Source: Acaryochloris marina MBIC11017 (GTDB lineage: Bacteria; Cyanobacteriota; Cyanobacteriia; Thermosynechococcales; Thermosynechococcaceae). From it: 32,000 nucleotides of DNA. Under the pieces are notes generated by a model. The model saw only the letters and a program-made list of their open reading frames with translations, was not told where the DNA came from and searched no databases. Of the stretch, positions 1 through 27,853 are shown piece by piece. Numbering within the stretch: the stretch's first letter is position 1; every line of letters starts with the position of its first letter. A program made the translations under genes and the position numbers. The stretch lies in contig NC_009925.1 of NCBI RefSeq assembly GCF_000018105.1, forward strand, positions 2,160,001 to 2,192,000, given 5' to 3'.

Positions 1-1023
1 CGGGCGTTGCGCCTCCACAATGCCTATCGCAACAATCTCCAAAGCCTGGATGTGGAAATTCCCTTGGGCAAGCTGGTTTGTATTACCGGGGTATCAGGGT
101 CGGGGAAATCGACGCTGATGAATGAATTGCTTTATCCGGCGTTGCAGCATCACTTGGGCTTTAAGGTACCGTTTCCGAATGAGTTGGACCGAGTGGCAGG
201 TCTGAAGAGTTTGGATAAGGCCATCGTCATTGACCAATCCCCGATTGGTCGCACGCCTCGTTCCAATCCTGCCACCTATACGGGGGTGTTTGACGTGATT
301 CGGAGCGTGTTTTCGGAAACGGTGGAAGCCAAGGCCCGGGGCTATAAGCCCGGTCGCTTTTCCTTTAACGTTAAGGGCGGGCGCTGTGAAGCCTGCGGTG
401 GGCAAGGGGTTAATGTGATTGAGATGAATTTCCTGCCGGATGTTTATGTGCAGTGCGAGGTTTGTAAGGGGGCACGGTATAACCGGGAAACGCTGCAGGT
501 GAAGTATAAGGGCAAGTCAATTGCCGATGTGCTGGCGATGACGGCGGAGGAAGCCCTGAAGTTTTGTGAGAATATCCCGAAGGCGGCAAATAAGCTGCAA
601 ACGATGGTGGATGTGGGACTAGGGTATGTACGGCTGGGACAAACGGCTCCAACGCTGTCGGGTGGAGAAGCCCAGCGGTTGAAGTTGGCGACGGAGCTAT
701 CCCGGCGGGCGACGGGTAAGACGCTGTATTTAATTGATGAACCGACGACGGGGTTGTCTTTTTATGATGTACACAAGTTACTGGATGTGTTGCAGCGGCT
801 GGTGGATAAGGGCAATTCAGTATTGGTGATTGAGCATAATTTGGATGTGATTCGCTGCTCGGATTGGGTGATTGATTTGGGACCAGATGGGGGCGATCGT
901 GGGGGTGAATTGGTGGCAACGGGGACGCCAGAAGCGGTTGCGAATGTCGCTGGGTCTTATACGGGACAATATCTTAAGCAGGTGCTAGCGCTTCATCCGC
1001 CAACCATTGCTGCTGACGCTTAA
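1..1023 (+). CDS. uvrA: Excinuclease ABC subunit A, C-terminal part (5'-partial; gene continues upstream of the window)
   Basis: The reading frame is open from nt 1, so the TTG at nt 7 is an ORF-caller artefact. The translation shows the second ABC module of UvrA: Walker [10 protein letters not shown], Cys4 zinc module [12 protein letters not shown], signature LSGGEAQR and Walker [12 protein letters not shown]. Stop codon TAA at 1021-1023. Confidence 0.95.
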
Positions 1024-1140: not shown

Positions 1141-4100
1141 GTGGCAGCTAATTTCCAATACGATGTTTTTCTCAGCCACAGTGCCAAGAATAAAGATGTG
1201 GTCAGGAAGATTGCAGAGCGGCTCAAATCTGCTGGGGTAAAAGTCTGGTTCGATGAGTGGAGCATTCGACCTGGAGATAGCATTCCAGCCAAAATTGAGG
1301 AAGGGTTAGAACAGTCCCGAGTGTTGGTACTGTGCATGTCTGCTGAGGCATTTGGGTCGGATTGGGCACAGTTGGAGAGTTATACCTTTCGGTTTAAAGA
1401 CCCACTAAACAAGGACCGTCGCTTTATTCCCCTCCGATTAGATGACGCCACTATCAGAGGATCACTGGCACAGTTTAGCTATATCGATTGGCGTAGGCAG
1501 GATAGCTCTGAAGCATATGGCAAACTGCTGACAGCTTGTCAACCTTATCAAGACGCTCCGCTACCAGACCCAAAACAACTCACTCAAGACGAATTTAAGT
1601 TAAAAATTCTATCGCTCGGACACACTGACGCCGTCTGGAGCGTGGCCTTCAGCGCCGACGGTCGCCGCGCCCTCTCCGGCTCCAATGACAACACCGTGCG
1701 CCTGTGGGACGTCGATACCGGACAATCCCTCAGGGTCATGGAAGGACACACTGACTCCGTCAATAGCGTGGCCTTCAGCGCCGACGGTCGCCGCGCCCTC
1801 TCCGGCTCCTCTGACAGAACCGTGCGCTTGTGGGACGTCGATACCGGACAATCCCTCCGAGTCATGGAAGGACACACTGACTCCGTCCAGAGCGTGGCCT
1901 TCAGCGCCGACGGTCGCCGCGCCCTCTCCGGCTCCTATGACAGAACCGTGCGCTTGTGGGACGTCGATACCGGACAATCCCTCCGAGTCATGGAAGGACA
2001 CACTGACTCCGTCCAGAGCGTGGCCTTCAGCGCCGACGGTCGCCGCGCCCTCTCCGGCTCCTCTGACAGAACCGTGCGCTTGTGGGACGTCGATACCGGA
2101 CAATCCCTCCGAGTCATGGAAGGACACACTGACTACGTCTGGAGCGTGGCCTTCAGCGCCGACGGTCACCGCGCCCTCTCCGGCTCTGATGACAACACCG
2201 TGCGCTTGTGGGACGTCGATACCGGACAATCCCTCCGAGTCATGGAAGGACACACTGACTCCGTCTGGAGCGTGGCCTTCAGCGCCGACGGTCGCCGCGC
2301 CCTCTCCGGCTCCTATGACCGCACCGTGCGCTTGTGGGACGTCGATACCGGACAATCCCTCAGGGTCATGGAAGGACACACTTCCTACGTCAATAGCGTG
2401 GCCTTCAGCGCCGACGGTCGCCGCGCCCTCTCCGGCTCCCAGGACCGCACCGTGCGCCTGTGGGACGTCGATACCGGACAAACTCTCAGGGTGATGGAAG
2501 GACACACTGAATACCTCCAGAGCGTGGTCTTCAGCGCCGACGGTCACTACGCCCTCTCCGGCTCCTATGACAGAACCGTGCGCTTGTGGGACGTCGATAC
2601 CGGACAATCCCTCAGGGTCATGGAAGGACACACTTCCTACGTCTTGAGCGTGGCCTTCAGCGCCGACGGTCGCCGCGCCCTCTCCGGCTCCTCTGACAGA
2701 ACCGTGCGCTTGTGGGACGTCGATACCGGACAATCCCTCCGAGTCATGGAAGGACACACTGACGCCGTCTGGAGCGTGGCCTTCAGCGCCGACGGTCGCC
2801 GCGCCCTCTCCGGCTCCTCTGACAGAACCGTGCGCTTGTGGGACGTCGATACCGGACAATCCCTCCGAGTCATGGAAGGACACACTGACTCCGTCAATAG
2901 CGTGGCCTTCAGCGCCGACGGTCACCGCGCCCTCTCCGGCTCCTATGACAGAACCGTGCGCTTGTGGGACGTCGATACCGGACAATCCCTCAGGGTCATG
3001 GAAGGACACACTGACGCCGTCTGGAGCGTGGCCTTCAGCGCCGACGGTCGCCGCGCCCTCTCCGGCTCCAATGACAACACCGTGCGCCTGTGGGACGTCG
3101 ATACCGGACAAACTCTCAGGGTGATGGAAGGACACACTGAATACCTCCAGAGCGTGGTCTTCAGCGCCGACGGTCACTACGCCCTCTCCGGCTCCCAGGA
3201 CCGCACCGTGCGCCTGTGGGACGTGGATACCGGACAAACCCTCAGGGTCATGGAAGGACACACTGGCGAAGTCTGGAGCGTGGCCTTCAGCGCCGACGGT
3301 CGCCAATACTATTCTTCTGCATCAAATGGTGTCCTACGTTTATGGCCATACGGCGATGAAACCTTGCCAGTAGTCACCGATCAGGTCGAATATACAAACG
3401 CCAAAGTCTTATTTGTAGGCAACAGTGCAGCGGGCAAAACCGGGCTTTCCAACCGGCTGGCACTAGACGCCTATAAAGAGACTGATTCTACAGTCGGTGC
3501 CTGGGCGACGCAGTGGAAGCTTCCTGTTGAGTCAAACGACGGCGTAGAAAAGGAGATTTGGCTATGGGATTTTGGGGGACAGGCGGATCAGCGGCTAATT
3601 CACCAACTCTATATGGATCAGACTCAGGTAGCGGCTTTAGTCTTTGATCCACAGAAGCCAGAATTCCTGGAGGGACTACGAACCTGGGATCGGGATCTGA
3701 CAAGGGCCGCTACAGGCGACTTTAAAAAATTGCTCGTTGCCGGACGCATCGATGCCGGAGGTCTACGCAGTGTCAGTCGCCATCAGGTTGAAGAATTTGC
3801 CCAAGAATATGGATTTGAGGAATACATCGAAACGAGTGCCAAAGAGAACATCGGCTGTAAGGAATTAAAACAGGCAATCTGTCAGTTAATCGATTGGGAT
3901 AGCATCGCCAAACGGACAACACCTAAGCTTTTCAGAAGACTCAAACAAGAGATTGTCTCCCTCAAGGACGAAGGTCGCACATTGATGCGCTTCAACGAAC
4001 TGCGTGAGGCCCTAACCCTGCGTATGAGTGGGGAACGCTTTACTGACACAGAGCTAAAGACTGTTATTTCACTTCTCGCTGGTCCAGGTGTAATGTGGGA

Positions 4101-5370
4101 ACTCGGATTTGGCTCCTGGGTTCTGCTAGCGCCTGAACTAATCAATGCCTATGCTCAAGCCGTTATTCGCACAATTCAAGAGGATGAACGCGAGTTGGGC
4201 TGTATCACAGAAGCCTGTGTCCTGGCTGGTCAGCTCAGCTATCCCAACGATCTCCAGCGGCTACCGGAAGAGGAAGAACGTATTCTGTTGCTGGCGATGC
4301 ACCGACTCCTGGTTGAAAATAGCCTCTGCCTGAGCGAACCTACGGAAACCGGAACCCTTTTGATCTTCCCTAGCTATGCTCGCCGCGAGCGTCCCGATCT
4401 GATTAAACACCCCTCCGTTATGGTCAGTTATGAGTTTGCAGGGTTTCTTGATGACATCTATGCGACTCTTATTGTTCGCCTGCACCGAATCAGCCCTTTT
4501 GAAACTGAAGAACTCTGGAAAGACGCCGCAGATTTCAAAAGCAGGACTGGCTATAAGTTGGGGGTTAAACTCTCCCGCAAAGCAGCAGGAAAAGCAGAAT
4601 TGCTGGTTTACTTCGACCCAAAGCTGTCGATTGGCGAGCGGATGATCTTTAGCCAATATGTTCAGGAGCATCTATTCCGCAAAGTCAAAGATCGTGATCA
4701 GGTCAAACGGCTGCGCCACTGGGTCTGTGGCAACTGTGGCGAACCTGTCGAGAATCGCAACCGGGCTATGCAACGTCTACACGACCAAGGGAAAGAAGCA
4801 AAAATCATCTGCGTTAACTGCGAGACATACGTGCAGCTCTGGGACGAAATGGAAGCAACGTTTGCAGACCCCGACATCCTTAGTCGAGTCAGAACCTTAG
4901 AAGCAGAAGCCCAACGTGAGCTGGATAACGAGAGCAAAGAACGAGCCCTTGTTGGTGATGTGATTTCCACGGTTGCGCTAGCAGGCCAAATTTCCCGTGA
5001 ATTCTCCGTTAGCGACCACGGCCTCGATATGGAGATTGAATTTAAGAATGACGAAGGTGAGGCAACGGGCCAGCGCCTTTACCTACAGCTCAAATCAGGC
5101 GACTCGTATCTGTCTGAAAGAAAACGTGATGGAGTGGAAATATTCAAAATTTCCAAGCAACGACATGTTGAATATTGGATAAATCAGAAATATCCAGTTA
5201 TGTTAGTCATTCGTAATTCGGAAGGCGAAATTCGCTGGATGGAAATTAGCGAATATCTTCAACAGAAAACCCAAAATGGTAAAAAACAGATTCGACAGAT
5301 CGAATTTGTGGGTGAACGCTTTGACGTGATGAGTGTCAGACATTGGCGGGAGAAAGCTCTAAAGCCGTAA
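1141..5370 (+). CDS. Multidomain TIR / WD40 x14 / Roc GTPase / COR / zinc-ribbon / DUF4365 nuclease-like protein (ROCO-type, NLR-like candidate immune or cell-death protein), 1409 aa
   Basis: GTG start at 1141, preceded by GGAG at 1131-1134.
- TIR (about 1159-1545): YDVFLSHS..VKVWFDEWSIRPGD..VLVLCMS..SDWAQLE.
- WD40: 14 units of 42 aa, GHTxxVxSVAFSADGRRALSGSxDxTVRLWDVDTGQSLRVME (1618-3381).
- Roc GTPase: P-loop GNSAAGKT (3418-3441), DFGGQ (3568-3582), AGRID as an NKxD-like G4, and ETSAKE as G5 (3829-3846).
- COR-like region (about 3900-4680): VLLAPELI..VSYEFAGFLDDIYATLIVRLHRI.
- Zinc ribbon: CGNC..CVNC (4726-4821).
- DUF4365-like: SDHGLDMEIEFK..LYLQLKSG (about 4930-5300). Confidence 0.9.
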   Translation: MAANFQYDVFLSHSAKNKDVVRKIAERLKSAGVKVWFDEWSIRPGDSIPAKIEEGLEQSRVLVLCMSAEAFGSDWAQLESYTFRFKDPLNKDRRFIPLRLDDATIRGSLAQFSYIDWRRQDSSEAYGKLLTACQPYQDAPLPDPKQLTQDEFKLKILSLGHTDAVWSVAFSADGRRALSGSNDNTVRLWDVDTGQSLRVMEGHTDSVNSVAFSADGRRALSGSSDRTVRLWDVDTGQSLRVMEGHTDSVQSVAFSADGRRALSGSYDRTVRLWDVDTGQSLRVMEGHTDSVQSVAFSADGRRALSGSSDRTVRLWDVDTGQSLRVMEGHTDYVWSVAFSADGHRALSGSDDNTVRLWDVDTGQSLRVMEGHTDSVWSVAFSADGRRALSGSYDRTVRLWDVDTGQSLRVMEGHTSYVNSVAFSADGRRALSGSQDRTVRLWDVDTGQTLRVMEGHTEYLQSVVFSADGHYALSGSYDRTVRLWDVDTGQSLRVMEGHTSYVLSVAFSADGRRALSGSSDRTVRLWDVDTGQSLRVMEGHTDAVWSVAFSADGRRALSGSSDRTVRLWDVDTGQSLRVMEGHTDSVNSVAFSADGHRALSGSYDRTVRLWDVDTGQSLRVMEGHTDAVWSVAFSADGRRALSGSNDNTVRLWDVDTGQTLRVMEGHTEYLQSVVFSADGHYALSGSQDRTVRLWDVDTGQTLRVMEGHTGEVWSVAFSADGRQYYSSASNGVLRLWPYGDETLPVVTDQVEYTNAKVLFVGNSAAGKTGLSNRLALDAYKETDSTVGAWATQWKLPVESNDGVEKEIWLWDFGGQADQRLIHQLYMDQTQVAALVFDPQKPEFLEGLRTWDRDLTRAATGDFKKLLVAGRIDAGGLRSVSRHQVEEFAQEYGFEEYIETSAKENIGCKELKQAICQLIDWDSIAKRTTPKLFRRLKQEIVSLKDEGRTLMRFNELREALTLRMSGERFTDTELKTVISLLAGPGVMWELGFGSWVLLAPELINAYAQAVIRTIQEDERELGCITEACVLAGQLSYPNDLQRLPEEEERILLLAMHRLLVENSLCLSEPTETGTLLIFPSYARRERPDLIKHPSVMVSYEFAGFLDDIYATLIVRLHRISPFETEELWKDAADFKSRTGYKLGVKLSRKAAGKAELLVYFDPKLSIGERMIFSQYVQEHLFRKVKDRDQVKRLRHWVCGNCGEPVENRNRAMQRLHDQGKEAKIICVNCETYVQLWDEMEATFADPDILSRVRTLEAEAQRELDNESKERALVGDVISTVALAGQISREFSVSDHGLDMEIEFKNDEGEATGQRLYLQLKSGDSYLSERKRDGVEIFKISKQRHVEYWINQKYPVMLVIRNSEGEIRWMEISEYLQQKTQNGKKQIRQIEFVGERFDVMSVRHWREKALKP
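1618..3381 (+). repeat. Tandem array of 14 x 126-bp coding repeats (WD40 blades) inside the 1141-5370 CDS
   Basis: The GGACACACT (Gly-His-Thr) unit start recurs at 1618, 1744, 1870 and so on to 3256, an exact 126-nt period. Units 1-13 are near-identical at nucleotide level. Unit 14 degenerates after codon 17. Exact long duplicates exist, for example 1618-1725 = 3004-3111 and about 2448-2565 = 3078-3195. Confidence 0.97.
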
Positions 5371-5373
5371 TCT

Positions 5374-6567
5374 ATGCAATCTGAACAGTCCCCTTACCTC
5401 AATAAAGTTGGCATTATCGGTGCAGGCCCCGCAGGACTCGCCACAGCCATCGCCCTCAGAAAGCAAGGCATAGAAGTCCATATCTATGAACGCGCCACAG
5501 CCTTGCGGCCCATCGGCGCAGGCGTCACCCTCTCCCCCAACGGCATCAGAAGCCTAGCCGCCATTGATACCGATATTGTTCAACAACTACAACAGCAAGG
5601 CTCCCAACTCAATCGCTTCCGCATCAGAACCGCTAAAGGATGGCCCCTCCTCAACCAACCCGTCAAAGATGACGATTACGATCAGCCCTTTCTAGCCATT
5701 CGCTGGTTTAGCCTCCAAGAAATAATGAGGGCCAAACTCCCCCCAGAAATTCTTCACCTCAATCATCAACTCACTCACTTTGAGCAAACCCATCAAAACG
5801 TCAATCTGTCCTTTGCCAACGGTGAAATGGCAACCGTTGATCTACTGATTGGCGCAGACGGCATTCGTTCCATCGTCCGCAAACAACTCTTTGACCTAGA
5901 AGACCCAGCTTATGGTGGTTGGATGACCTGGCGCGGCGTCCAAAAATATCAGCATCCCTTGCTTCCCCCTCACCACACCACGATTTTTGCCAAACGAGGC
6001 AAAAGTTTAATCCTCCTAGATAACGGCCAAGGCTATGTCTCATGGGCATTAGAGATACCCATGCCCACCATTCATCGATCCCAACATCCCGAAGCAGCAA
6101 AAACCCGAGTCCTACAGGAACTCTCCAAATGGCATCCTACCTTACAAGAACTGGTGAACCTCACAGATGCAGACACCATCGTTGAAAGACCCGTATGCGA
6201 GCCTATGATCTTGCCTCAATGGAGCAACGGCAGAGTCACCCTCGTCGGGGATGCCGCCCATCCAATGGCACCCTTCTTAGGCCAAGGCACTAACACCACC
6301 TTCGAAGACGTGTGGGCCTTATCCACCTATTTATCTCAACAGGGCAATCTAGCAAACGCTTTGAAAAACTACGAAAACAACCGTATTGAGCGCGCCCATA
6401 CTATTCAATATCGGACAATGTACTCCGCTGCTCAAATGCGCAACCCTTTCCTACGACCTCGATGGTTCAAAACATCCTTAGGAAAAGTACCAGACCAGGC
6501 CAAAGTCAGCGAAAAGGCATTTTCAGATTGGCTCTACCAGTATGAGCTAACAACTGAATCAACTTAA
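5374..6567 (+). CDS. FAD-dependent aromatic-ring monooxygenase/hydroxylase family protein (UbiH / salicylate hydroxylase / zeaxanthin-epoxidase-like), 397 aa
   Basis: Rossmann dinucleotide motif GIIGAGPAGLATA, GADGIRSIVR motif, and GDAAHPMAPFLGQGTNTTFEDV FAD-ribityl motif. The ATG lies 3 nt after the stop of the preceding gene. Confidence 0.85.
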   Translation: MQSEQSPYLNKVGIIGAGPAGLATAIALRKQGIEVHIYERATALRPIGAGVTLSPNGIRSLAAIDTDIVQQLQQQGSQLNRFRIRTAKGWPLLNQPVKDDDYDQPFLAIRWFSLQEIMRAKLPPEILHLNHQLTHFEQTHQNVNLSFANGEMATVDLLIGADGIRSIVRKQLFDLEDPAYGGWMTWRGVQKYQHPLLPPHHTTIFAKRGKSLILLDNGQGYVSWALEIPMPTIHRSQHPEAAKTRVLQELSKWHPTLQELVNLTDADTIVERPVCEPMILPQWSNGRVTLVGDAAHPMAPFLGQGTNTTFEDVWALSTYLSQQGNLANALKNYENNRIERAHTIQYRTMYSAAQMRNPFLRPRWFKTSLGKVPDQAKVSEKAFSDWLYQYELTTEST

Positions 6568-6620
6568 CTCGCCTCCGTCAGGCCAAGAAAAGACTGGAGT
6601 CCTATACGCATTTACACAAA

Positions 6621-6713: not shown

Positions 6714-7796
6714 TTAACCGTTGATGACAGGAGCAGTAAGAGCAACAGGAGCAGACTCACCAGCAGCCAAGTCTAAGGGGAAGTTATGAGCGTTACGCTC
6801 GTGCATAACTTCGAAACCCAAGTTGGCGCGGTTTAGTACGTCAGCCCATGTGTTCACAACGTTACCTTGTGAATCAACGATGGAGTGGTTGAAGTTGAAA
6901 CCATTCAAGTTGAAGGCCATGGTGCTGATGCCCATTGCAGTCAACCAGATGCAGACAACGGGCCATGCACCCAAGAAGAAGTGCAAGGAACGGCTGTTGC
7001 TGAAAGATGCATATTGGAAGATCAAACGACCGAAGTAGCCGTGGGCTGCAACGATGTTGTAGGTCTCTTCCTCTTGGCCGAACTTGTAACCGTAGTTGGC
7101 GGACTCACCTTCGGTGGTCTCACGAACTAGAGTGGAGCTAACCAAGGAACCGTGCATGGCGGCGAATAAGGAACCACCCAGTACACCAGCAACTCCAAAC
7201 ATGTGGAAGGGGTGCATGAGGATGTTGTGCTCAGCTTGGAACACGAACATGAAGTTGAAGGTTCCGCTGATGCCTAGAGGCATTCCGTCGGAGAAGCTGC
7301 CCTGACCTAGAGGATAGATCAAGAAGACAGAGTAGGTAGCGGCCAAAGGTGCAGAGTAAGCAACACAAATCCAAGGACGCATCCCTAGACGGTAGCTGTA
7401 CTCCCACTGACGACCGAGGTAGCAAATACAACCAATCATGTAATGGAAAATGATTAGCTGGTAAGGGCCACCGTTGTACAACCACTCATCAAGAGAAGCT
7501 GCTTCCCAGATGGGATACAGGTGAAGGCCAATGGCGTTGGATGAAGGAACAACGGCACCAGTGATGATGTTGTTGCCATAAAGTAGTGAACCAGCAACGG
7601 GCTCACGGATTCCATCGATGTCGACGGGAGGGGCGCCGATGAAGGCGATTACGAAACAGGTTACAGCGGTGAGAAGTGTAGGAATCATCAATACGCCGAA
7701 CCAACCGATGTATAAACGGTTGTTGGTGCTGGTGATGAAGCTACAGAATCTTTCCCATGCGCTGGCGCTTTCGCGTCTTTGCAAGACTGTTGTCAT
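6714..7796 (-). CDS. psbA: Photosystem II reaction-centre protein D1, 360 aa precursor
   Basis: [18 protein letters not shown].. N-terminus. By manual numbering all key residues are present: Tyr161 (YZ), Asp170, Glu189, His190, His198, His215, His272, His332, Glu333, His337, Asp342 and Ala344. A 16-aa C-terminal extension follows Ala344. Residue 130 is Gln. Confidence 0.99.
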
Positions 7797-12545: not shown

Positions 12546-13829
12546 TTAATCCAAATTGATGTTAATGGTGCGCTGACCAATATCGTGGCGGTAATAGCAG
12601 CCCTCAAATTGAATGGACGGTATCGCCTGATAAACCGTTTTTAGCGCTTCTTCAAAGGTGCTCCCTTGTCCAGTCACCGCTAAGACCCTGCCGCCACTGG
12701 TGATAATGGCTTGGTCTTTAAGTTGGGTGCCAGCATGAAAGACGGTGACGTTCTGGGCTTCGGCTTTATCAAGATCGGCAATTGGGAAGCCCTTTTGGTA
12801 GCTACCGGGATACCCTCCTGAGGCCAACACGACACAGGCTGAGAAGCCTGACTGCCATTGGATATCAATTTCAGCCAGTTCTTGTTGGGTACAGGCCATC
12901 AAGAGCTGATCCAACGGGGTGGCTAGAAGACTTAATACTGCTTGGGTCTCGGGATCGCCAAATCGACAGTTAAATTCGATGACTTTGGGCTCACCGGTAG
13001 GAGTGATGATCAGCCCTGCATAGACCACACCGCGATAATCAATGCCTTTCTGCTGCAGTGCCGTTAGAGTAGGTTGAAGAATGTCTGTTTCTACACGCTG
13101 CATTAATTTAGGGGTAACCCAGGGAACCGGCGCATAGGCTCCCATACCGCCGGTATTTGGCCCCGTATCTCCTTCGCCAATGGGCTTATGGTCTTGAGCT
13201 GGAATCAACGGTTTAATGGTTTTGCCATCCGTCAAAGCTAAAACTGAAACTTCTTGCCCTGTTAGATATTCCTCAATTAAAACGGTCTGGCCCGCTTCGC
13301 CAAATTTACCGGAGAAGGCCTCATTCACAGCATTCAATGCTTCATCTAGGGTGAGAGCAACGGTCACTCCTTTGCCTGCAGCCAGACCATCTGCCTTAAT
13401 CACAATTGGAGCACCTTCCGACTGAATATAAGCCTGAGCAGCATCTACATCGGTAAAGGTTTGGGCCTTAGCCGTAGGGATACCAGCCTCGGTCATGAGG
13501 GTTTTGGCCCAGGTTTTGCTGGCTTCGAGTTGGGCACCAGCTTGGGTAGGGCCAAATACAGGGATGTTAAACGGCTGCAGGGCATCCGTAATTCCCTCAG
13601 CCAGAGGTGCTTCTGGCCCCACAACTACTAAGGCGATGTCCTGGGATTGGGCAAATTGACCAATAGCAGCAAAGTCTTGCTCAGAAATATCAATATTTTG
13701 ACAGTTGGTTAGGGTAGCAGTACCCCCGTTGCCAGGTAAACAATACACTTGCTGCACCGTTTGCGATCGCAACAAGGACCACGCCAATGCATGCTCGCGA
13801 CCACCACTGCCAATCACTAAAATATTCAC
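12546..13829 (-). CDS. purD: Phosphoribosylamine--glycine ligase (GAR synthetase), 427 aa
   Basis: MNILVIGSGGREHALAWSL N-terminus, ATP-grasp core (GMGAYAPVP, VIEFNCRFGDPE) and C-terminal GGRVLAVTG. Confidence 0.97.
   Translation of the reverse strand: MNILVIGSGGREHALAWSLLRSQTVQQVYCLPGNGGTATLTNCQNIDISEQDFAAIGQFAQSQDIALVVVGPEAPLAEGITDALQPFNIPVFGPTQAGAQLEASKTWAKTLMTEAGIPTAKAQTFTDVDAAQAYIQSEGAPIVIKADGLAAGKGVTVALTLDEALNAVNEAFSGKFGEAGQTVLIEEYLTGQEVSVLALTDGKTIKPLIPAQDHKPIGEGDTGPNTGGMGAYAPVPWVTPKLMQRVETDILQPTLTALQQKGIDYRGVVYAGLIITPTGEPKVIEFNCRFGDPETQAVLSLLATPLDQLLMACTQQELAEIDIQWQSGFSACVVLASGGYPGSYQKGFPIADLDKAEAQNVTVFHAGTQLKDQAIITSGGRVLAVTGQGSTFEEALKTVYQAIPSIQFEGCYYRHDIGQRTININLD
13763..13770. repeat. 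HIP1 palindrome GCGATCGC
   Basis: Exact octamer read directly from the sequence. Confidence 0.9.
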
Positions 13830-17836: not shown

Positions 17837-20533
17837 TTAGAAAAAGTCTTTCGCTTTCTGGACCGCAAGGGTGAGAGCAAAAATAGCAAAGATAAAGATG
17901 CCGAAGATCCCTAAATGTTGATTGACATTGACTTTGAACGTATTGCTGAATTGCTCATTAATGCCGTTGATTAAACCTTCAGCGGCACTAATGGCACCAT
18001 TACGTTTTAAATTCCACTCCGTTAGGTCTTCTTGATACTTTTCAAGATCTTTGTTGAATTTATCAAAGGCATCTGGAGATTGAGCATCAGCCCCTGTGGG
18101 TTGTTTAGGCTGTTTGGGCTTCGGTTGATCGACAATCGGGTCATATTCTTGCTCGATGCCGGGAAACTCGCATTTTTTAAAAACGCTCTCTCCCATGCAA
18201 TCACAGCTTTTTTTCCGATCCGCTCCGATTTCATCGTATTCTTTGACCTTGCCGGAGGTCACATCTTGCCAGCAAGGATCCTCTGCTACATCAATACCGG
18301 CTTCCGACAGCGTGGAGAGGGCTTCAAACGGCCACTTCGTCAGGGATAACTGGTTGAGCACCTTTCCTGGCGGGCCAAACGTCTCAATAGGTAAAACGCC
18401 ACCCCCAAAGATAATTTGAGGAATCAGAAAAACCAACACTAAAATAGGAGCCACACTCTGATTAGGAGCCGCTGCCGATCCTAAAAGTCCCAGCAGCATC
18501 CCCGCAATCACCGACAGGGTAATGGTTAGATACATCCCCAGGAGAATGCCAGGTTCACTCGGTAAGTCCTTGACCGCAATGATTTTAAACAGCAAGAAAA
18601 CACCGCCCTGGTAGAGAGCTAGCAAAACACTCACCCATACCTTGGAAAAGACATAGGGGGCAATCTGTAAGCCAATAATTCTTTCTCGACGATAAATATC
18701 GACTTCTTTGACGATTTCGCGCATCGTCGGTAGCGCACCCACCATCACAGCAAACAGAATAGTGGTGAACAGCATCGTTAACGCCAAACTGGCATCACCA
18801 TCTTTCGTACTGAATAGGGGCTGGCTCCAGGTCACCAGATCTAGCATTCCTAAGATCGGTGCGACAGCCAGCATCAGCAAAAGGCTAACGCGATCGCGCA
18901 TTAGAATCGCAATATTCCGCTTCGATAGAATGAGGAATTGCTTCCAACTCGAAATAGTTTTGACCTGAGCGCCTGGCAATTGCTGCTTCAGGCGTTTCGC
19001 CCCTCGTTGAGTTCCTGATGCCCCTAAGGATTGTTGGCGTTGCGCCACATATTTTTGATATAAGGGCGATTGCTGATAACGCTGTTGCCATTCCTGCGGG
19101 GATAATTCATGTTCAACCTTGCTGTAAATTTGGTTGAACTTTTCTACGCCAAAGTAGCCAGGCGCTTCTTTCGGCGGACCATAGTAGGCTAAATACCCCC
19201 CTCGGGCCATAAACACCACCTGATCACACATCGTCACATTGTCGGTAGCATGGGTGATCAGCAAAATGGTGCGGCCTTGATCCGCTAACTCCCGCAACAG
19301 CTGCATCAGTTCAGCTTCGGTGCCAGGATCGAGGCCCGACGTGGCTTCATCTAAATAAAATAGGCTGGGCTTGGTCAGGAGTTCTACCCCAATGGACACC
19401 CGCTTAATTTGGCCGCCACTGAGGGACTTAATGGGGACAGAGCGCCGATGTTCCAGTCCTAAGTCTTTCAGGACTTCGCTCACCCGCATTTTTCGTTCTG
19501 CCCGGGTTGTATCATTGGGCATGCGCAATTGAGCCGCGAAGTCCAACGCTTGTTCAACGGTTAATTCCATATGGACAATGTCCCGCTGGGGAACATAGCC
19601 AATTTGATTGCGATAGGCATTGAAATTACGGTATAAATCCGTGCCGTTGACCAAAACATTGCCACTCGTCGCCGGCCGGAACCCGTTTAAAGCATCCAGT
19701 AAGGTTGATTTCCCTCCACCACTGACCCCGGCAATCACCACAAATTCCCGGGCCTGAATTGATAAGGAGATATCTTGCAGCAGGTTGAGGTCCTTATTGA
19801 TTTGCTTATTTAGACCAATGGCATCAATCCGCAGATTTCCCTCTTCATTGCTATGGAGTAGGGTCTCATTCAGATTAAAGACCAGATTGGTTGGACCCAC
19901 GCGAATCGAATCCCCGACTCGGAGAGGGTGATGGCCAACAATTTGCTTGCCATTTAGGAAGGTGCCATTGGTGGAGTTGAGGTCGAGAACAATATAAGAT
20001 CCGTCTTGCTTTTTGATTTGAGCATGGAAGCGGGAGACCGACGGATGGTTAATCTCCATGTCATTGAGCGGATCGCGACCTAAGGTGAAGGTATCACGCC
20101 CTTTTAAGTCTAAATGCCGAGATTGCGTGGGAGGAGATCCCACGCCAGCTTCAGGCACACCTGAAATCGTCGTTTTCTGGGCTGAGACAGGGACAGGAGC
20201 CTGGGCAGGAATCGGAGCAGGTGCTGCGATCGCAAGAATGATTTCATAGTTACCAATCCGAACTTGATCACCCGGCACCAGGGATCGAGGGGTATGAGGC
20301 GCTAGCTGAATACCATTAACGTAGGTACCATCAGAGCTATTAAGATCCGTGACGACATAAGCATTGCCAGAATATTTAAATTGGGCATGATGCCTAGAGA
20401 CTGACAAATCATCACTTAAAACGAGCTGATTATCTGGGGAGCGACCTAAATTGACTTCAGTTTGCGTCAGCGGAAATTCTCTAACGAGAGCTTGGTCTTT
20501 GCGGATATCAAGTTTGGCAGCAGGATTAGGCAT
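17837..20533 (-). CDS. FHA-FHA-ABC transporter fusion (two forkhead-associated domains, ABC ATPase and ABC-2/ABCG-type membrane domain)
   Basis: FHA1 VNLGRSPDNQLVL..SRHHAQF..DLNSSDGTYVNG. FHA2 FTLGRDPLNDMEI..SRFHAQI..DLNSTNGTFLNG. Walker A GVSGGGKST, signature LSGGQIKR, Walker B LFYLDEATSGLD. Six predicted TM segments follow, with a long loop before the last. The ORF-track start at 20572 is TTG; the first ATG (MPNPAAKLDI) is at 20533. Confidence 0.88.
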   Translation of the reverse strand: MPNPAAKLDIRKDQALVREFPLTQTEVNLGRSPDNQLVLSDDLSVSRHHAQFKYSGNAYVVTDLNSSDGTYVNGIQLAPHTPRSLVPGDQVRIGNYEIILAIAAPAPIPAQAPVPVSAQKTTISGVPEAGVGSPPTQSRHLDLKGRDTFTLGRDPLNDMEINHPSVSRFHAQIKKQDGSYIVLDLNSTNGTFLNGKQIVGHHPLRVGDSIRVGPTNLVFNLNETLLHSNEEGNLRIDAIGLNKQINKDLNLLQDISLSIQAREFVVIAGVSGGGKSTLLDALNGFRPATSGNVLVNGTDLYRNFNAYRNQIGYVPQRDIVHMELTVEQALDFAAQLRMPNDTTRAERKMRVSEVLKDLGLEHRRSVPIKSLSGGQIKRVSIGVELLTKPSLFYLDEATSGLDPGTEAELMQLLRELADQGRTILLITHATDNVTMCDQVVFMARGGYLAYYGPPKEAPGYFGVEKFNQIYSKVEHELSPQEWQQRYQQSPLYQKYVAQRQQSLGASGTQRGAKRLKQQLPGAQVKTISSWKQFLILSKRNIAILMRDRVSLLLMLAVAPILGMLDLVTWSQPLFSTKDGDASLALTMLFTTILFAVMVGALPTMREIVKEVDIYRRERIIGLQIAPYVFSKVWVSVLLALYQGGVFLLFKIIAVKDLPSEPGILLGMYLTITLSVIAGMLLGLLGSAAAPNQSVAPILVLVFLIPQIIFGGGVLPIETFGPPGKVLNQLSLTKWPFEALSTLSEAGIDVAEDPCWQDVTSGKVKEYDEIGADRKKSCDCMGESVFKKCEFPGIEQEYDPIVDQPKPKQPKQPTGADAQSPDAFDKFNKDLEKYQEDLTEWNLKRNGAISAAEGLINGINEQFSNTFKVNVNQHLGIFGIFIFAIFALTLAVQKAKDFF
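18890..18897. repeat. HIP1 palindrome GCGATCGC
   Basis: Exact octamer read directly from the sequence. Confidence 0.9.
20226..20233. repeat. HIP1 palindrome GCGATCGC
   Basis: Exact octamer read directly from the sequence. Confidence 0.9.
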
Positions 20534-20697
20534 TGTCAGAGTCGAGACAGCATAAATGAAATGGGCTGGCAATGGGTCGATTGTGGGCGAGGGGGCTGGG
20601 ACTACGCGTCAGGTTCCCTTTCGATCACATTCGAACATTGATCAATATTAATCCCATTAAAGTTCGAATCCTTCAAGATGGATTTATTCCGCAACAC

Positions 20698-22029
20698 TCA
20701 GGAGCGTAATCGTTGCCGAAATTCGGTCGCTTGCTCTGCAACTGGAATTTGCTGCGATAGCAATTTGACTAGCTCTTGTTCAGTCACACCAGGATACTGG
20801 GTCAGGGTGCGCTGATAAACAATCGCTGAGATAGGGCCAATAAACTCTGCCAAAACATTCTGGCACTTTTGTCCAAATTCTGGCCGAATAACCGGTTGTG
20901 AGCTCGGAACAATGGGTACTGTTGCTGACTCTGGAGCAGATGATACTGGACCTGTGGAAGAAGGCGTAGGAGGTGGCTCGATCGGCTGGCTTGTCGGCTG
21001 AGCAAAGGAAGCAGGGCCAGCTGGCTGACTCGTAGACTGCCCACTAGCAGGAATACTAGAGCCAGATGAATTAGGCTGAACAGAATTGACCGCCTGAGTG
21101 GGTTCCATCCCCATCGTTGAGTTTAAAACGGAAGCAGGGATCGATTGGCCACTACTTTCCAACACAACAAGCTGCTGCAGGACAACCTCAGCATTTGCGG
21201 GACGCTGACTCGCCACTGGCGCCATTAACCAATCTAAAAGATTGGCAAATCGTGGAGAGATATTAATAGCGGTTGAGCGCCACTCAAACTTATCCGTACT
21301 CCCATCGTAAAACTGACTGAGTTCTTTACCCGTCACCAAATAGACAAAGGTTCGACCTAGCGCAAAAAAGTCAGACTGGGGAACCGCCTGCCCATGAATT
21401 TGCTCGCGGGGGGTATAAAAGGAGGAGACCACCCGGGTTCCTCCTTGTTGGGTATTGGTCACATTCGTCACGGATCGAGCTGTACCAAAGTCAACCAAAC
21501 AGATGTTGCCATTGGCTTTCAGCATAATATTAGAGGGCTTAATGTCCCGATGCAGCACCTGCTGCTGATGGACAACCTGGAGAATTTTTAGGACTTGTTT
21601 CAGCCATTGGACCGCCAGTTTTTCATCAATGGGATGTCCCCGTTGTCGTAAATAATCTTGTAAGTCCAACCCCACGATTTTTTCCATGACCAGACAATGG
21701 AGGGGCTCTTTCCAATTGCGAGGATAAAACGTGAAGTAAGAGTTGGGCTCAACTTTAGGAATGCCAGGATGATTGAGTTGGCTCAGCAAATTAGCCTCAC
21801 GCTGAAACAACTCGACATGCTTGGGATAATTGTCAGTCAGTATTTTGAGGATCTTAGGGCTACTCTCTAAATCACTCACTTCATAGGTTTTGCCAAATCC
21901 GCCTTGACCTCGTAGACTAATGACTCGATAACGTCCTTCTAGCAACAGTTCTGAACCACAACTCGCACAGAACAGATGGTCATCTGAGCTTTGTGGATCG
22001 GCACAACTAGGATTGATGCAGAGACTCAT
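20698..22029 (-). CDS. Hanks-type Ser/Thr protein kinase with N-terminal zinc ribbon, Pro/Ser-rich linker and small C-terminal domain, 443 aa
   Basis: CINPSC..CASCG zinc ribbon. Glycine loop GQGGFGKTY, catalytic loop HRDIKPSNIML, DFGTAR, and a Thr-rich activation loop ending TPRE. It lies upstream of, and is co-oriented with, the FHA-ABC gene. Confidence 0.9.
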   Translation of the reverse strand: MSLCINPSCADPQSSDDHLFCASCGSELLLEGRYRVISLRGQGGFGKTYEVSDLESSPKILKILTDNYPKHVELFQREANLLSQLNHPGIPKVEPNSYFTFYPRNWKEPLHCLVMEKIVGLDLQDYLRQRGHPIDEKLAVQWLKQVLKILQVVHQQQVLHRDIKPSNIMLKANGNICLVDFGTARSVTNVTNTQQGGTRVVSSFYTPREQIHGQAVPQSDFFALGRTFVYLVTGKELSQFYDGSTDKFEWRSTAINISPRFANLLDWLMAPVASQRPANAEVVLQQLVVLESSGQSIPASVLNSTMGMEPTQAVNSVQPNSSGSSIPASGQSTSQPAGPASFAQPTSQPIEPPPTPSSTGPVSSAPESATVPIVPSSQPVIRPEFGQKCQNVLAEFIGPISAIVYQRTLTQYPGVTEQELVKLLSQQIPVAEQATEFRQRLRS

Positions 22030-25945: not shown

Positions 25946-27853
25946 ATGACGTCCCCCCAGGCAGTTGAATTTTTGGATGAGTTTGAAGTGATTGTCGTCG
26001 GGGCAGGCCATGCCGGGTGTGAAGCTGCGTTAGCCTCTGCTCGCATGGGCTGCAGTACCCTATTGCTCACCCTCAATCTCGACAAAATTGCTTGGCAACC
26101 CTGCAATCCTGCGGTGGGAGCCCCCGCCAAATCTCAGCTCACCCATGAAGTCGATGCCCTGGGCGGCGAAATTGGCAAAATGGCGGATCGCACCTATTTG
26201 CAAAAGCGTCTGCTCAACCATTCCCGGGGTCCTGCCGTTTGGGCCTTACGGGCTCAGACCGACAAACGCGAATATGCGGCAGTGATGAAAACCATCGTCG
26301 AGAACCAGGGCAATCTGACCGTGCGGGAAGGTATGGTCACGGATTTAGTCCTGGGAGACAATGATGAGGTCGTTGGAGTCCAGACCTATTTTGGCGTCGC
26401 CTTTCGCTGCCAGGCCGTTATTCTGACCACAGGCACCTTTTTAGGGGGACGCATTTGGGTGGGAGATAAATCCATGCCCGCTGGACGAGCCGGAGAGTTT
26501 GCGGCGGAGGGGCTGACCGAAACCCTCAATCAATTGGGGTTTGAAACGGGACGATTGAAAACTGGGACACCTGCTCGGGTCGACAAGCGGTCTGCGGACT
26601 TTAGTGTGATGGAACCTCAGCCCCCGGATCAGCAGGTGCGTTGGTTTAGTTTTGATCCTGCAGTTTGGATTGAGCGGGAGCAGATGAACTGTTATATCAC
26701 CCGCACTACCCCGGAAACCCACCAGTTGATTCAGGACAATTTACATCTATCCCCCGTCTATGGCGGCTGGGTCGATGCCAAAGGCCCGCGCTACTGTCCC
26801 AGTATTGAAGACAAAATCGTGCGGTTTGCCGATAAGGCTAGCCATCAGATTTTTATTGAGCCAGAAGGCCGCGATATCCCTGAACTCTATATTCAGGGAT
26901 TCTCCACGGGTCTACCCGAGGCATTGCAGTTACGGATGTTGAGATCGCTGCCCGGTCTCGAACACTGTGCCATGCTCCGCCCAGCCTACGCCGTGGAATA
27001 TGATTATCTACCTGCAACCCAGTGTTATCCCACCTTAATGACCAAACGGATCGAGGGTCTCTTCTGTGCGGGACAAATTAATGGCACCACCGGCTATGAA
27101 GAAGCGGCGGCTCAGGGGATTGTTGCCGGTATCAATGCTGCCCGCAGGGTGAACCAGCAGGAAATGCTCATTTTCCCCCGAGCGGAAAGCTATATTGGTA
27201 CGCTCATCGACGACCTGTGCACAAAAGACCTACGAGAGCCCTATCGGATGTTGACCGGCCGATCTGAATATCGATTGCTGTTGCGATCGGACAATGCCGA
27301 TCAGCGATTGACCCCCTTGGGGCGAGAAGTCGGTCTGATTGATGATCGACGCTGGCACTTATTTACCCGTAAGCAGGCCACCATCACCGCTGAGAAAGAA
27401 CGACTTCATGCCACCCGGCTAAAAGAGCGAGATCCCGCCGCCCAAGCGATTGTCCAAACAACAGGTGAAAAAATTAAAGGGTCGATCACCTTATCTGATC
27501 TGCTGCGTCGGCCCAAGTTCCATTACTGCGACCTTCAGCAACACGGCTTAGGCATCGAGACCCTGGAGCGCTCTGAACGGGAAAGCGTTGAAATTGAAAT
27601 TAAGTATGCAGGGTATATCCAGCGCCAACAGCGCCAGATTGAGCAGGTTAGTCGGCAAGAACAGCGCAAACTACCTGAAAACATAGATTATGCCAGCATT
27701 GAGACGTTATCCATGGAAGCCCGGGAGAAATTGGCAAAAGTGCGGCCCCTAACGGTAGGACAGGCATCTCGCATTGGTGGTGTCAACCCTTCAGATATCA
27801 ATGCTTTGCTGTTTTATCTCGAAACATTAGCTCGCTTGTCCCCAGTCAGCTAA
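25946..27853 (+). CDS. mnmG: tRNA uridine 5-carboxymethylaminomethyl modification enzyme MnmG (GidA), 635 aa
   Basis: [26 protein letters not shown] motif, [57 protein letters not shown]. Confidence 0.97.

What the first reader, a model, noticed from the sequence alone, without database searches (positions are those of the whole stretch)
1618..3381. WD40 array with near-identical 126-bp units and variation confined to about 10 codon positions (hypervariable recognition surface)
I aligned the 14 units by hand. Units 1-13 are invariant at 32 of 42 residues. Using G1-H2-T3 numbering, the variable positions are:
- position 4: D/S/E/G
- position 5: A/S/Y/E
- position 6: V/L
- position 7: W/N/Q/L
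- position 10: A/V
- position 16: R/H
- position 17: R/Y/Q
- position 23: N/S/Y/D/Q
- position 25: N/R
- position 37: S/T
The most variable sites flank the conserved GH..V.S and S-x-D-x-T turns. In WD40 propellers these turns form the top, ligand-binding face. Synonymous sites are also almost identical between units, which indicates ongoing concerted evolution by unequal crossover or gene conversion rather than ancient duplication.
The same combination is the signature described for fungal NWD/HET-E-type NLR WD40 repeats, where it is interpreted as a rapidly diversifying non-self recognition repertoire. Finding it fused to TIR and nuclease-like effector domains supports a receptor function.
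Basis: seen in the sequence. Interest (0 to 1): 0.75.

Follow-up and report, generated by a model that had tools for sequence, protein, structure and literature searches.

The report
Hypervariable WD40 sensor array in ROCO protein
A cyanobacterial gene carries 14 nearly identical WD40 repeats that differ almost only at the known ligand-contact positions. This is a known pattern for fast-evolving recognition domains, found here in a previously undescribed TIR–GTPase–nuclease protein that is probably an intracellular immune sensor.

Summary
Nucleotides 1618-3381 encode 14 in-frame 42-residue WD40 units. Units 1-13 are 84-99% identical in DNA and invariant at 32 of 42 residues.

The three most variable positions (23, 7, 5) are the rule-defined top-face contact residues of WD40 blades (D-1, R1, R1-2). 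At positions 5, 7, 23 and 25, which I infer match the four selected sites of fungal HET-E/NWD repeats, dN is 0.81. dS is 0.10 across the array. Sixteen of 25 minimal non-synonymous steps fall on these four codons (p = 1e-10).

The syntenic Acaryochloris orthologue has the same scaffold but different variable residues.

The interpretation needs three corrections:
- The protein is not an NLR. It is a ROCO GTPase: TIR – 14 WD40 – Roc-COR – zinc ribbon – DUF4365 nuclease.
- Synonymous sites are not nearly identical (dS about 0.10).
- Units are no more alike within this genome than between genomes, so genome-specific concerted evolution is not shown.

Highly repetitive WD40 arrays with variable contact sites are already described (HR-WD40, WRAP/2YMU, fungal NWD). 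The array is therefore a new member of a known kind.

The protein family around it is widespread. I found no description of it in the searched literature. It is plausibly a GTPase-based analogue of NLR immune receptors.

The parts
1141..5370 (+). Whole gene: 1409-aa TIR – WD40x14 – Roc-COR – zinc ribbon – DUF4365 protein (GTG start)
   Evidence: ORF list. Domain hits. Homologues start with the same ...YDVFLSHS motif.
1165..1530 (+). TIR domain (aa 9-130), putative NADase effector
   Evidence: Pfam TIR_2 E = 1.5e-30. Best PDB relatives by sequence are the bacterial TIRs 7UWG, PdTIR 3H16 and AbTIR 8G83. Glu79 in 'DWAQLE' aligns with a Glu in 7UWG and 3H16, the two alignments printed.
1618..3255 (+). 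Thirteen near-identical 126-bp WD40 units (aa 160-705), the recently amplified hypervariable blades
   Evidence: TRF. Unit table and entropies. Pfam WD40 E = 2e-171 with 14 stretches. Best PDB match is 2YMU, E = 7e-168.
3256..3381 (+). Unit 14, the closing blade. The first ~16 codons belong to the amplified repeat; the rest ('QYYSSASNGVLRLW...') is the family-conserved old blade
   Evidence: Identity to the unit consensus falls from 0.78-0.94 to 0.22-0.56 after about codon 18. The same terminal blade motif is seen in homologues.
3403..3885 (+). Roc/Ras-like GTPase domain (P-loop GNSAAGKT, DFGGQ switch II, GRxD instead of NKxD)
   Evidence: Pfam Ras 5.9e-22 and Roc 4e-17. TIGR00231. Invariant columns in alignment A1.
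3922..4716 (+). COR-like domain following Roc (approximate limits)
   Evidence: No Pfam hit. The AF2 model of the C-terminal 662 aa (pLDDT 72) matches C. tepidum Roco 6HLU (E = 2.8e-15), M. barkeri Roco2 RocCORdC 4WNR (TM 0.68) and LRRK1/2.
4726..4821 (+). CxxC...CxxC putative zinc ribbon between COR and the nuclease
   Evidence: C449, C452, C477 and C480 of the C-terminal part are invariant in 19 family members.
4984..5355 (+). DUF4365, a PD-(D/E)xK-type nuclease domain and putative second effector
   Evidence: Pfam DUF4365 E = 3.4e-25. PADLOC Aga_REase hits. D..E..QxK residues are invariant or nearly so and align with the solved DUF4365 protein 9QBQ (weak). DUF4365 is the nuclease of SPARDA systems (PMC10810196, PMC12205087).

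Best explanation
**What it is.** The region is a recently amplified, highly repetitive WD40 array of 14 blades, which probably fold as two 7-bladed propellers as in 2YMU. It serves as the ligand-sensing module of a single-gene, intracellular conflict or immunity protein built on a ROCO GTPase. The architecture is TIR – WD40x14 – Roc-COR – zinc ribbon – DUF4365 nuclease.

**Shown.**
- A 126-bp blade was amplified in frame.
- The scaffold (32 of 42 codons) has no amino-acid change, although dS is about 0.10.
- The top-face contact residues (R1-2, R1, D-1 and neighbours) carry multi-nucleotide, non-synonymous differences. They give 12 different combinations in 13 blades.
- Variants are reshuffled among units.
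- The orthologous array in a related strain differs at these residues.

**Inferred.**
- Unequal crossover or gene conversion among units, combined with diversifying selection on the top face, keeps generating new binding surfaces.
- Binding of a non-self protein, most likely from a phage, to the propellers changes the nucleotide or oligomeric state of Roc-COR.
- That change brings TIR domains (NAD+ hydrolysis) and DUF4365 nuclease domains into active assemblies, causing abortive infection.
For: **Array structure and identity**
- Structure and unit identity.
- Closest solved relative is WRAP/2YMU, with 14 near-identical blades that form two propellers (PMC6805158).
- Internal amino-acid identity is 0.88, above the 0.7 HR-WD40 cut-off of Hu et al. 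2017 (PMC5587647).

**Location of the variable sites**
- The top-entropy positions 23, 7 and 5 are D-1, R1 and R1-2 (PMC3419727).
- Strand and loop assignment comes from the model's secondary structure.

**Selection signal**
- dN at sites 5, 7, 23 and 25 is 0.81. dS over the whole array is 0.098, and dN at the other 38 sites is 0.033.
- Sixteen of 25 minimal non-synonymous steps fall on these four codons, binomial p = 1.3e-10.
- Twelve of 13 units have a distinct residue combination at the four sites.
- 101 of 220 site pairs fail the four-gamete test.

**Comparison with relatives**
- The syntenic orthologue L001 has the same scaffold, but its last full unit differs at 10 of 42 residues. The flanking domains are 95% identical.
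- Independent repetitive arrays in the same family (P0174, P0126, L005, L008, L014, L021) vary at the same positions.

**Domains**
- TIR, Roc and DUF4365 by Pfam.
- Roc-COR by fold search.
- Putative catalytic residues are kept.
- The family is stand-alone, with no conserved neighbour genes.
- It is widespread: at least 1562 word-filtered hits, and 475 clusters at E <= 1e-30 for the COR-DUF4365 part.
Against: - No experiment or published study links this family to defence, and PADLOC has only domain-level hits.
- The gene sits among housekeeping genes (uvrA, psbA, purD, mnmG), not in a defence island.
- The dN/dS contrast uses pairwise counts on recombining repeats, not a site model.
- Synonymous sites in the units may be constrained. 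GC3 is 0.775 in the units and about 0.49 in the rest of the gene, and unit dS between genomes is three times lower than flank dS. This would inflate dN/dS. Even so, dN at the four sites (0.81) still exceeds the flank dS of 0.33.
- The 3D position of the sites rests on sequence rules and secondary structure. The single-sequence model had pLDDT 55, so there is no reliable model.
- Only one close orthologue was available, from a short-read MAG contig that ends inside the repeat.
- The ligand, the role of GTP and effector activation are all inference.
Confidence: 0.6

Rival explanations
1. The array is a nascent propeller with relaxed constraint. It is simply a very young amplification (WRAP-type). 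The variable positions are the least constrained surface residues of any WD40 blade, so they accumulate neutral change first. No diversifying selection or recognition repertoire is involved.
For: Recent amplification of blades is common and continuous in bacteria (PMC9218822; PMC6805158). Positions 5, 7, 23, 25, 16 and 17 are also the most variable in older arrays of the family, where their dN/dS is about 0.5-1. Whole-array dN/dS is 0.86.
Against: At the four sites dN (0.81) is 8 times the array dS and 2.4 times the flank dS between strains. Codons differ by 2-3 nucleotides (TGG/AAT/CAG; AAT/TCT/CAG), while 32 codons have no amino-acid change at all. Twelve of 13 blades carry different combinations. 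Neutral drift should not exceed the synonymous rate.
Confidence: 0.2
2. The array is a signalling scaffold, not an immune sensor. The protein would be a ROCO-type regulatory GTPase for an endogenous pathway. The WD40 propellers would bind host partners, and the TIR and DUF4365 domains would act as interaction or regulatory modules.
For: The function of prokaryotic Roco proteins is unknown (PMC6337361). The gene lies in a housekeeping neighbourhood conserved with the orthologue. No defence database model covers the whole protein.
Against: A fixed host partner would impose purifying selection on the contact residues, not diversification or turnover between strains. The TIR is closest to bacterial NADase TIRs. 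DUF4365 is an effector nuclease in SPARDA defence systems. The family is patchily spread over many phyla with no conserved neighbours, which is typical of mobile single-gene conflict systems.
Confidence: 0.12
3. The pattern is an assembly artefact or comes from targeted mutagenesis. Either the number and order of units reflect mis-assembly of a repeat, or a dedicated mutator such as a diversity-generating retroelement writes the variation.
For: Arrays of 126-bp units with more than 90% identity break short-read assemblies. The orthologous MAG contig ends inside the array, and many database homologues are truncated there.
Against: The ORF is intact through exactly 14 in-frame units, each distinct, with a sharp start and a defined end. 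Fourteen blades equal two propellers, as in 2YMU and in other 12-14-blade family members. No reverse transcriptase or template repeat lies in the 32-kb window. The variable columns show no adenine bias: majority bases are G7, A6, C8, T6.
Confidence: 0.05

Closest known systems
WRAP (Npun_R6612 of Nostoc punctiforme, PDB 2YMU) and the Highly-Repetitive (HR) WD40 proteins of Hu et al. 2017
   Same: Cyanobacterial array of 14 near-identical 42-residue WD40 blades, and the best PDB match (E = 7e-168). Internal identity is above 0.7. Residual variation is concentrated at predicted top-face hot spots, and WRAP's recurrent W/R change is at the position called 7 here. Both are linked to TIR-containing putative innate-immunity proteins.
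   Different: WRAP has no synonymous differences and only 10 point mutations, so it is younger and barely diversified. This array has dS about 0.10 and 12 different contact-residue combinations. WRAP is fused to a STAND ATPase. This array lies between a TIR and a Roc-COR GTPase.
Fungal HNWD / HET-E / HET-D NACHT-WD40 NLRs (Podospora anserina)
   Same: Highly internally conserved 42-residue WD40 units. Two pairs of diversifying codons flank a conserved residue in the d-a loop and the b-c turn, with the same 18-residue spacing. Nearly every unit has a different combination. Units are reshuffled (PMC1805685).
   Different: There is no NACHT domain, and the host is bacterial. No paralogue family exchanging repeats was found in the window or on plasmids. 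No RIP. Within-genome homogenisation is not demonstrated.
ROCO proteins (C. tepidum Roco, M. barkeri Roco2, LRRK1/2)
   Same: A Roc GTPase is followed directly by a COR-like domain, with fold matches to 6HLU, 4WNR and LRRK1/2. A repeat domain is attached to the switch, and LRRK2 also has a WD40.
   Different: The 2019 Roco review describes prokaryotic ROCOs only as LRR-Roc-COR (PMC6337361). Here the repeat is WD40, with an N-terminal TIR and a C-terminal DUF4365 nuclease. There is no kinase. The G4 motif is GRxD.
Bacterial STAND NLR-like receptors with WD40 or TPR sensors (Avs, bNACHT; PMC13581612)
   Same: Tripartite logic of effector, NTP switch and repeat sensor. WD40 propellers have been reported as sensors. 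The effectors are TIR and nuclease domains.
   Different: The switch is a Ras-like GTPase, not a STAND ATPase. The domain order is effector – sensor – switch – effector. No member of this family has been tested.
SPARDA / SPARTA short-Argonaute systems
   Same: They use the same two effector domain types: the DUF4365 nuclease and the TIR NADase, both activated by assembly.
   Different: No Argonaute or APAZ is present. The sensor here is a protein-binding propeller rather than a nucleic-acid guide.

Membership tests
Highly-Repetitive WD40 / WRAP-like recently amplified propeller | Tandem WD40 repeats recognised by profile | tested here: met
   Pfam WD40 E = 2e-171 with 14 stretches. DHSW tetrad residues H2, S20, D24 and W30 are invariant.
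Highly-Repetitive WD40 / WRAP-like recently amplified propeller | Internal blade identity >= 0.7 over contiguous repeats (Hu et al. 2017) | tested here: met
   Mean amino-acid identity is 0.88 over 13 blades and mean nucleotide identity is 0.917. The cut-off is from PMC5587647.
Highly-Repetitive WD40 / WRAP-like recently amplified propeller | Low synonymous divergence among blades (recent amplification) | tested here: met
   dS is 0.098 among units, against 0.5-1.2 in older arrays of the same family. It is not zero as in WRAP.
Highly-Repetitive WD40 / WRAP-like recently amplified propeller | Folds as closed propellers (two 7-bladed for 14 blades) | tested here: inconclusive
   The blade number and four-strand periodicity fit, but the single-sequence model had pLDDT 55.
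Fungal HET-E/NWD-type NLR | NACHT (STAND) nucleotide-binding domain | tested here: not met
   No NACHT or NB-ARC hit. The central module is Ras/Roc with a COR fold.
Fungal HET-E/NWD-type NLR | Diversifying selection at four top-face codons of each repeat | tested here: met
   dN is 0.81 at sites 5, 7, 23 and 25, against dS 0.098. Sixteen of 25 non-synonymous steps fall there, p = 1.3e-10. The positional match to sites 7, 9, 25 and 27 is inferred from spacing and loop description. This is a pairwise count, not a site model.
Fungal HET-E/NWD-type NLR | Concerted evolution: repeats exchanged within and between paralogues, so units cluster by genome | tested here: inconclusive
   Reshuffling within the array is seen (four-gamete test). 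However, unit dS within the genome (0.098) is about the same as between genomes (0.108). No paralogue carrying this unit is in the window or on plasmids. The rest of the genome could not be searched.
ROCO protein family | Roc GTPase domain | tested here: met
   Pfam Roc 4e-17 and Ras 5.9e-22. The P-loop and DxxGQ motifs are conserved.
ROCO protein family | COR domain in tandem after Roc | tested here: met
   Foldseek hits: 6HLU E = 2.8e-15, 4WNR TM 0.68 over 333 columns, plus LRRK1/2. The query model has moderate confidence (pLDDT 72). There is no sequence-profile hit to a COR family.
ROCO protein family | N-terminal LRR, as in all prokaryotic ROCOs described up to 2019 | tested here: not met
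   WD40 takes the place of LRR. The review statement is in PMC6337361.
TIR NADase effectors | TIR fold with catalytic glutamate | tested here: met
   TIR_2 E = 1.5e-30. Glu79 aligns with a Glu in 7UWG and PdTIR 3H16, the two alignments printed; AbTIR 8G83 is among the hits but its alignment was not shown. That this Glu is catalytic rests on general knowledge of TIR NADases. Enzymatic activity is not testable here.
DUF4365 (SPARDA-type) nuclease | DUF4365 profile match with a PD-(D/E)xK-like acidic/QxK motif | tested here: met
   Pfam E = 3.4e-25. D549, E551 and K571 are invariant and Q569 is nearly so. The alignment to 9QBQ is weak, E = 0.055.
DUF4365 (SPARDA-type) nuclease | Partnered with a short Argonaute / APAZ | tested here: not met
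   No such domain is in the protein or among the neighbouring ORFs.
Diversity-generating retroelement target | Nearby reverse transcriptase, template repeat and adenine-specific variation | tested here: not met
   No RT was found among the ORFs of the window that were scanned or read. No second copy of the unit lies outside the array. Variable columns are not A-biased.

The most novel reading that the evidence does not exclude
The TIR – WD40 – Roc-COR – DUF4365 family is a widespread bacterial class of intracellular pattern-recognition receptors. In it a ROCO (LRRK2-type) GTPase replaces the STAND ATPase of NLRs. The family has 475 clusters at 50% identity (E <= 1e-30), spans many phyla, and comes in 7- and 14-blade forms. 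Its WD40 propellers are repeatedly rebuilt from one blade and diversified at the contact residues to track changing phage ligands. If so, immune sensing would be an ancient function of ROCO proteins.
Probability: 0.45. Interest if true: 0.7.

Novelty: new member of a known kind. Interest (0 to 1): 0.45.

Why it matters
The array itself is a clean, moderately aged example of a known process. One blade is amplified into a double propeller, and the ligand-contact residues then diversify while the scaffold stays frozen. It sits between WRAP (just amplified, almost no variation) and ordinary divergent propellers, so it is a useful natural snapshot of how a new binding surface is explored.

The context matters more. 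The array belongs to a large protein family in which a ROCO GTPase sits between the WD40 sensor and the DUF4365 nuclease, with a TIR at the N-terminus. I found no experimental or descriptive study of this family in the searched literature. If it is a defence system, it would extend the effector–switch–sensor logic of NLRs to a different switch. It would also give a bacterial model for ROCO proteins, whose prokaryotic function is unknown.

Tried and rejected
- **Exact-protein look-up.** The window's protein is not on record, so the source genome and other strains could not be retrieved that way.
- **Metagenome scan.** A search with an invariant 21-nt core of the unit gave 0 hits. The second scan that was allowed was not used, because protein-level relatives were already in hand.
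- **Plasmid search.** Megablast of four units against PLSDB plasmids gave no match, so no plasmid-borne paralogue with this unit was found.
- **Homology search with TIR + array.** It returned mostly unrelated WD40-rich STAND or kinase proteins. It was useful only to show that repetitive arrays are common, and for a few family members.
- **Single-sequence AlphaFold model of the array.** Mean pLDDT was 55. It was used only for strand periodicity. No 3D mapping or fold search was attempted on it.
- **DGR or targeted mutagenesis.** Rejected: no RT, no template repeat and no A bias.
- **Conserved neighbour genes across 19 family loci.** None found beyond three closely related loci.
- **Promoter and terminator scan around the gene.** Nothing above the shuffled background.
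- **Minus-strand ORF.** The 565-aa ORF across the array (1609..3306) was dismissed as a by-product of a stop-free GC-rich repeat.
- **Literature searches.** Searches for this architecture (DUF4365 + TIR + WD40 + Roc; Roco + anti-phage) found no paper describing it.
Full report
**1. The observation**

The window holds a 1409-aa ORF at 1141..5370 on the + strand. Tandem Repeats Finder reports a single array at 1618-3304: period 126, 13.4 copies, 91% matches, no indels.

Cutting at 1618 + 126n gives 14 in-frame 42-residue units that start with GHT. Units 1-13 are 84-99% identical in DNA, with a mean of 91.7%. Unit 14 is about 56% identical to the others.

Thirty-two of 42 residues are invariant in units 1-13.

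The amplified DNA begins abruptly at 1618. The 126 nt upstream are about 20% identical to the unit consensus, which is the random level. Amplification ends near codon 16-18 of unit 14. The rest of unit 14 is the conserved closing blade of the family.

**2. Where the variation lies**

Entropy is highest at positions 23 (2.16 bits), 7 (1.83), 5 (1.55) and 4 (1.20).

By the sequence rule of Wu et al. 2012, R1 is the residue between the two aliphatic residues of V-R1-R2-V. R1-2 lies two residues before it, and D-1 precedes the Asp of the DHSW tetrad (PMC3419727). In this unit (V6-x7-S8-V9; D24) those are positions 7, 5 and 23, exactly the three most variable. By my own calculation the chance of that coincidence is 1 in 11,480.

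The model's strand periodicity places the loops as follows:
- positions 1-6 in the D-A loop;
- positions 22-25 in the B-C turn;
- positions 13-16 and 32-36 in the bottom loops.

So positions 4, 5, 6, 7, 23 and 25 are on top, 16, 17 and 37 are at the bottom, and 10 is in the core. The last four vary mainly in one unit type (EYLQ..V..HY, units 8 and 13).

In Podospora NWD repeats the selected codons are 7/9 (d-a loop) and 25/27 (b-c turn), flanking conserved residues 8 and 26 (PMC1805685). Here 5/7 flank V6 and 23/25 flank D24 with the same spacing. I take these four as an a-priori set. The positional match is inferred from spacing and loop description.

**3. Selection and reshuffling**

Pooled Nei-Gojobori estimates among units 1-13 are dS 0.098 and dN 0.085. 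The split by site class is shown below.

| Site class | dN |
|---|---|
| Four a-priori sites (5, 7, 23, 25) | 0.81 |
| Other 38 sites | 0.033 |
| The 32 invariant codons | 0 |

Minimal substitution counts give 16 of 25 non-synonymous steps on the four codons, where 10% is expected (binomial p = 1.3e-10). Twelve of 13 units carry a distinct residue combination at those sites.

Codons there differ by two or three nucleotides, for example TGG/AAT/CAG/TTG and AAT/TCT/TAT/GAT/CAG.

Of 220 pairs of informative sites, 101 show all four gametes. For example, the synonymous AGG/CGA at codon 39 is combined with both AAC and AGA at codon 25. Units have therefore been recombined or converted in short tracts.

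No reverse transcriptase or second copy of the unit is in the window, and the variable columns are not adenine-biased.

**4. The orthologue, and a caveat**

The closest genome hit is a 3.9-kb contig of an Acaryochloris MAG (L001). It is collinear with window 2852-6580 at 90.6% DNA identity and includes the downstream monooxygenase.

The Roc-COR-DUF4365 part is 95% identical, with dS 0.33 and dN 0.024. The three full units on that contig have the same scaffold but other contact residues (DSVL/Y.N, DSVN/T.N, DAVW/D.S). The unit next to the closing blade differs from the window's unit 13 at 10 of 42 residues.

However, unit dS between the two genomes (0.108) equals the within-array value and is three times lower than the flank dS. 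Units also have GC3 of 0.775. The rest of the gene has 0.45-0.49, and 0.54 is expected for the same amino acids with the gene's own codon usage.

Genome-specific concerted evolution is therefore not shown. Either the unit pool is shared or was exchanged recently, or synonymous sites in the units are constrained, for example by GC-biased conversion. This could inflate dN/dS, but dN at the four sites still exceeds the flank dS. L001 is a short-read contig that ends in the repeat, so only its last units are fully trustworthy.

**5. The protein**

| Region | Assignment | Evidence |
|---|---|---|
| aa 9-130 | TIR_2 | E = 1.5e-30 |
| aa 160-747 | WD40 x 14 | E = 2e-171 |
| aa ~755-915 | Ras/Roc GTPase | |
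| about 350 aa after Roc | No sequence-family hit | |
| aa 1282-1405 | DUF4365 | E = 3.4e-25 |

An AlphaFold model of the C-terminal 662 aa was built with 19 family sequences (pLDDT 72). It matches the LRR-Roc-COR structure of C. tepidum Roco (6HLU, E = 2.8e-15), M. barkeri Roco2 RocCORdC (4WNR, TM 0.68), LRRK1 and LRRK2. The switch is therefore a ROCO GTPase, not a STAND NTPase.

The TIR is closest to bacterial TIRs including AbTIR and PdTIR, and Glu79 aligns with a Glu in the two alignments shown (7UWG, 3H16).

DUF4365 is the nuclease of SPARDA systems (PMC10810196, PMC12205087). Its D..E..QxK residues are invariant or nearly so in the family.

A CxxC...CxxC motif between COR and DUF4365 is also invariant.

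**6. The family**

- The C-terminal part finds at least 1562 proteins in many phyla, including Cyanobacteria, Acidobacteriota, Planctomycetota and Bacteroidota.
- The COR-DUF4365 part alone finds 475 clusters at E <= 1e-30 among 1.84 billion representatives.
- Most members are about 1130 aa with 7 divergent blades. A minority have 12-14 blades.
- Several members from different lineages have independently repetitive arrays: P0174, P0126, P0133, L005, L011, L021 and L024. These vary mostly at positions 4, 5, 7, 23 and 25.
- Close cyanobacterial relatives include both repetitive arrays with a similar scaffold (P0006, P0003) and old divergent ones (P0002, P0007). Propellers in this family are therefore repeatedly rebuilt from single blades.
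- No neighbouring gene is conserved across loci.

**7. Comparison with what is known**

- Highly repetitive prokaryotic WD40 proteins whose residual diversity sits at predicted hot spots were described by Hu et al. 2017 (PMC5587647).
- The 14-blade WRAP of Nostoc (2YMU) is the best PDB match. Its recurrent W/R change is at the position called 7 here.
- A link of such propellers to bacterial innate immunity has been proposed (PMC9218822).
- The combination of repeat reshuffling and selection at four top-face codons is the Podospora NWD model (PMC1805685).

The array is thus a new member of a known kind.

What I did not find described is the protein architecture. The 2019 Roco review lists only LRR-Roc-COR for prokaryotes (PMC6337361). 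The 2026 survey of bacterial pattern-recognition receptors covers STAND proteins only. PADLOC gives only domain-level hits.

**8. Mechanism proposed (inference)**

1. The two propellers present about 14 x 4-5 variable contact residues.
2. Binding of a foreign, probably phage, protein alters the nucleotide or oligomeric state of Roc-COR.
3. This brings TIR domains and DUF4365 domains into active assemblies.
4. NAD+ is depleted and nucleic acid is degraded.

Supporting background: TIR NADases need oligomerisation, and the SPARDA nuclease is activated by filament formation (abstracts listed).

Unequal crossover and conversion among the 126-bp units provide copy-number change and reshuffling. Selection keeps new top-face variants while the scaffold is held constant.

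**9. Verdict**

It is right about the recognition surface and the effectors. It is wrong about the NLR class and overstated on concerted evolution.
- The array is a new member of a known kind, of moderate interest.
- The more novel possibility is that this is a ROCO-based immune receptor family.

Noticed in passing
window 1618-3255 vs 1141-1617 and 3382-5367; L001 27-404: The amplified units have GC3 of 0.775, against 0.45-0.49 in the rest of the same gene and 0.50 in the non-amplified closing blade. The orthologue shows the same. Across the family, repetitive arrays sit near GC3 0.6-0.88 whatever the host's codon usage (rho = 0.53, p = 0.011). GC-biased conversion versus foreign origin of the blade is unresolved.
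   Followed up: partly
window 1618-3255 vs L001 27-404; flanks 3382-5367 vs L001 531-2516: Synonymous divergence of units between two genomes (0.108) equals that within the array (0.098). It is three times lower than in the flanking single-copy part of the same gene (0.33). Units do not diverge in step with the gene.
   Followed up: partly
window ~4726-4821 (+): A CxxC...CxxC motif, a putative zinc ribbon, lies between the COR-like domain and DUF4365. It is invariant in 19 family members.
   Followed up: no
window ~3740-3760 (+), Roc domain: The guanine-specificity motif is GRxD (LLVAGRID) instead of the usual NKxD, and it is invariant in the family. This may affect nucleotide preference.
   Followed up: no
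proteins P0012, P0024, P0028, P0036 etc. (688-730 aa): Many family members consist of Roc-COR-DUF4365 only, without TIR or WD40. Some lie on long contigs of up to 78 kb, so a sensor-less or split form of the system seems to exist.
   Followed up: no
proteins P0242, P0261, P0265, P0289, P0319 and others: A second size class of about 1370-1470 aa with 12-14 blades exists in the family and includes members with divergent blades. The double propeller is therefore an established variant, not peculiar to this gene.
   Followed up: partly
window 1609..3306 (-): A 565-aa ORF on the opposite strand spans the array, and there are other long ORFs in alternative frames. They are by-products of a stop-free GC-rich repeat and have no family support.
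   Followed up: partly
window 17837-20572 (-) and 20698-22029 (-): A protein with two FHA domains fused to an ABC transporter (ATPase plus ABC-2 membrane domain) lies next to a Ser/Thr protein kinase. This is a possible phospho-signalling pair.
   Followed up: no
window 7-1023, 6714-7796 (-), 12546-13829 (-), 25946-27853, 27899-27972: The surroundings are housekeeping genes: the uvrA 3' end, psbA (D1), purD, mnmG/gidA and tRNA-Pro(TGG). No mobile-element or defence genes were seen near the ROCO gene.
   Followed up: partly
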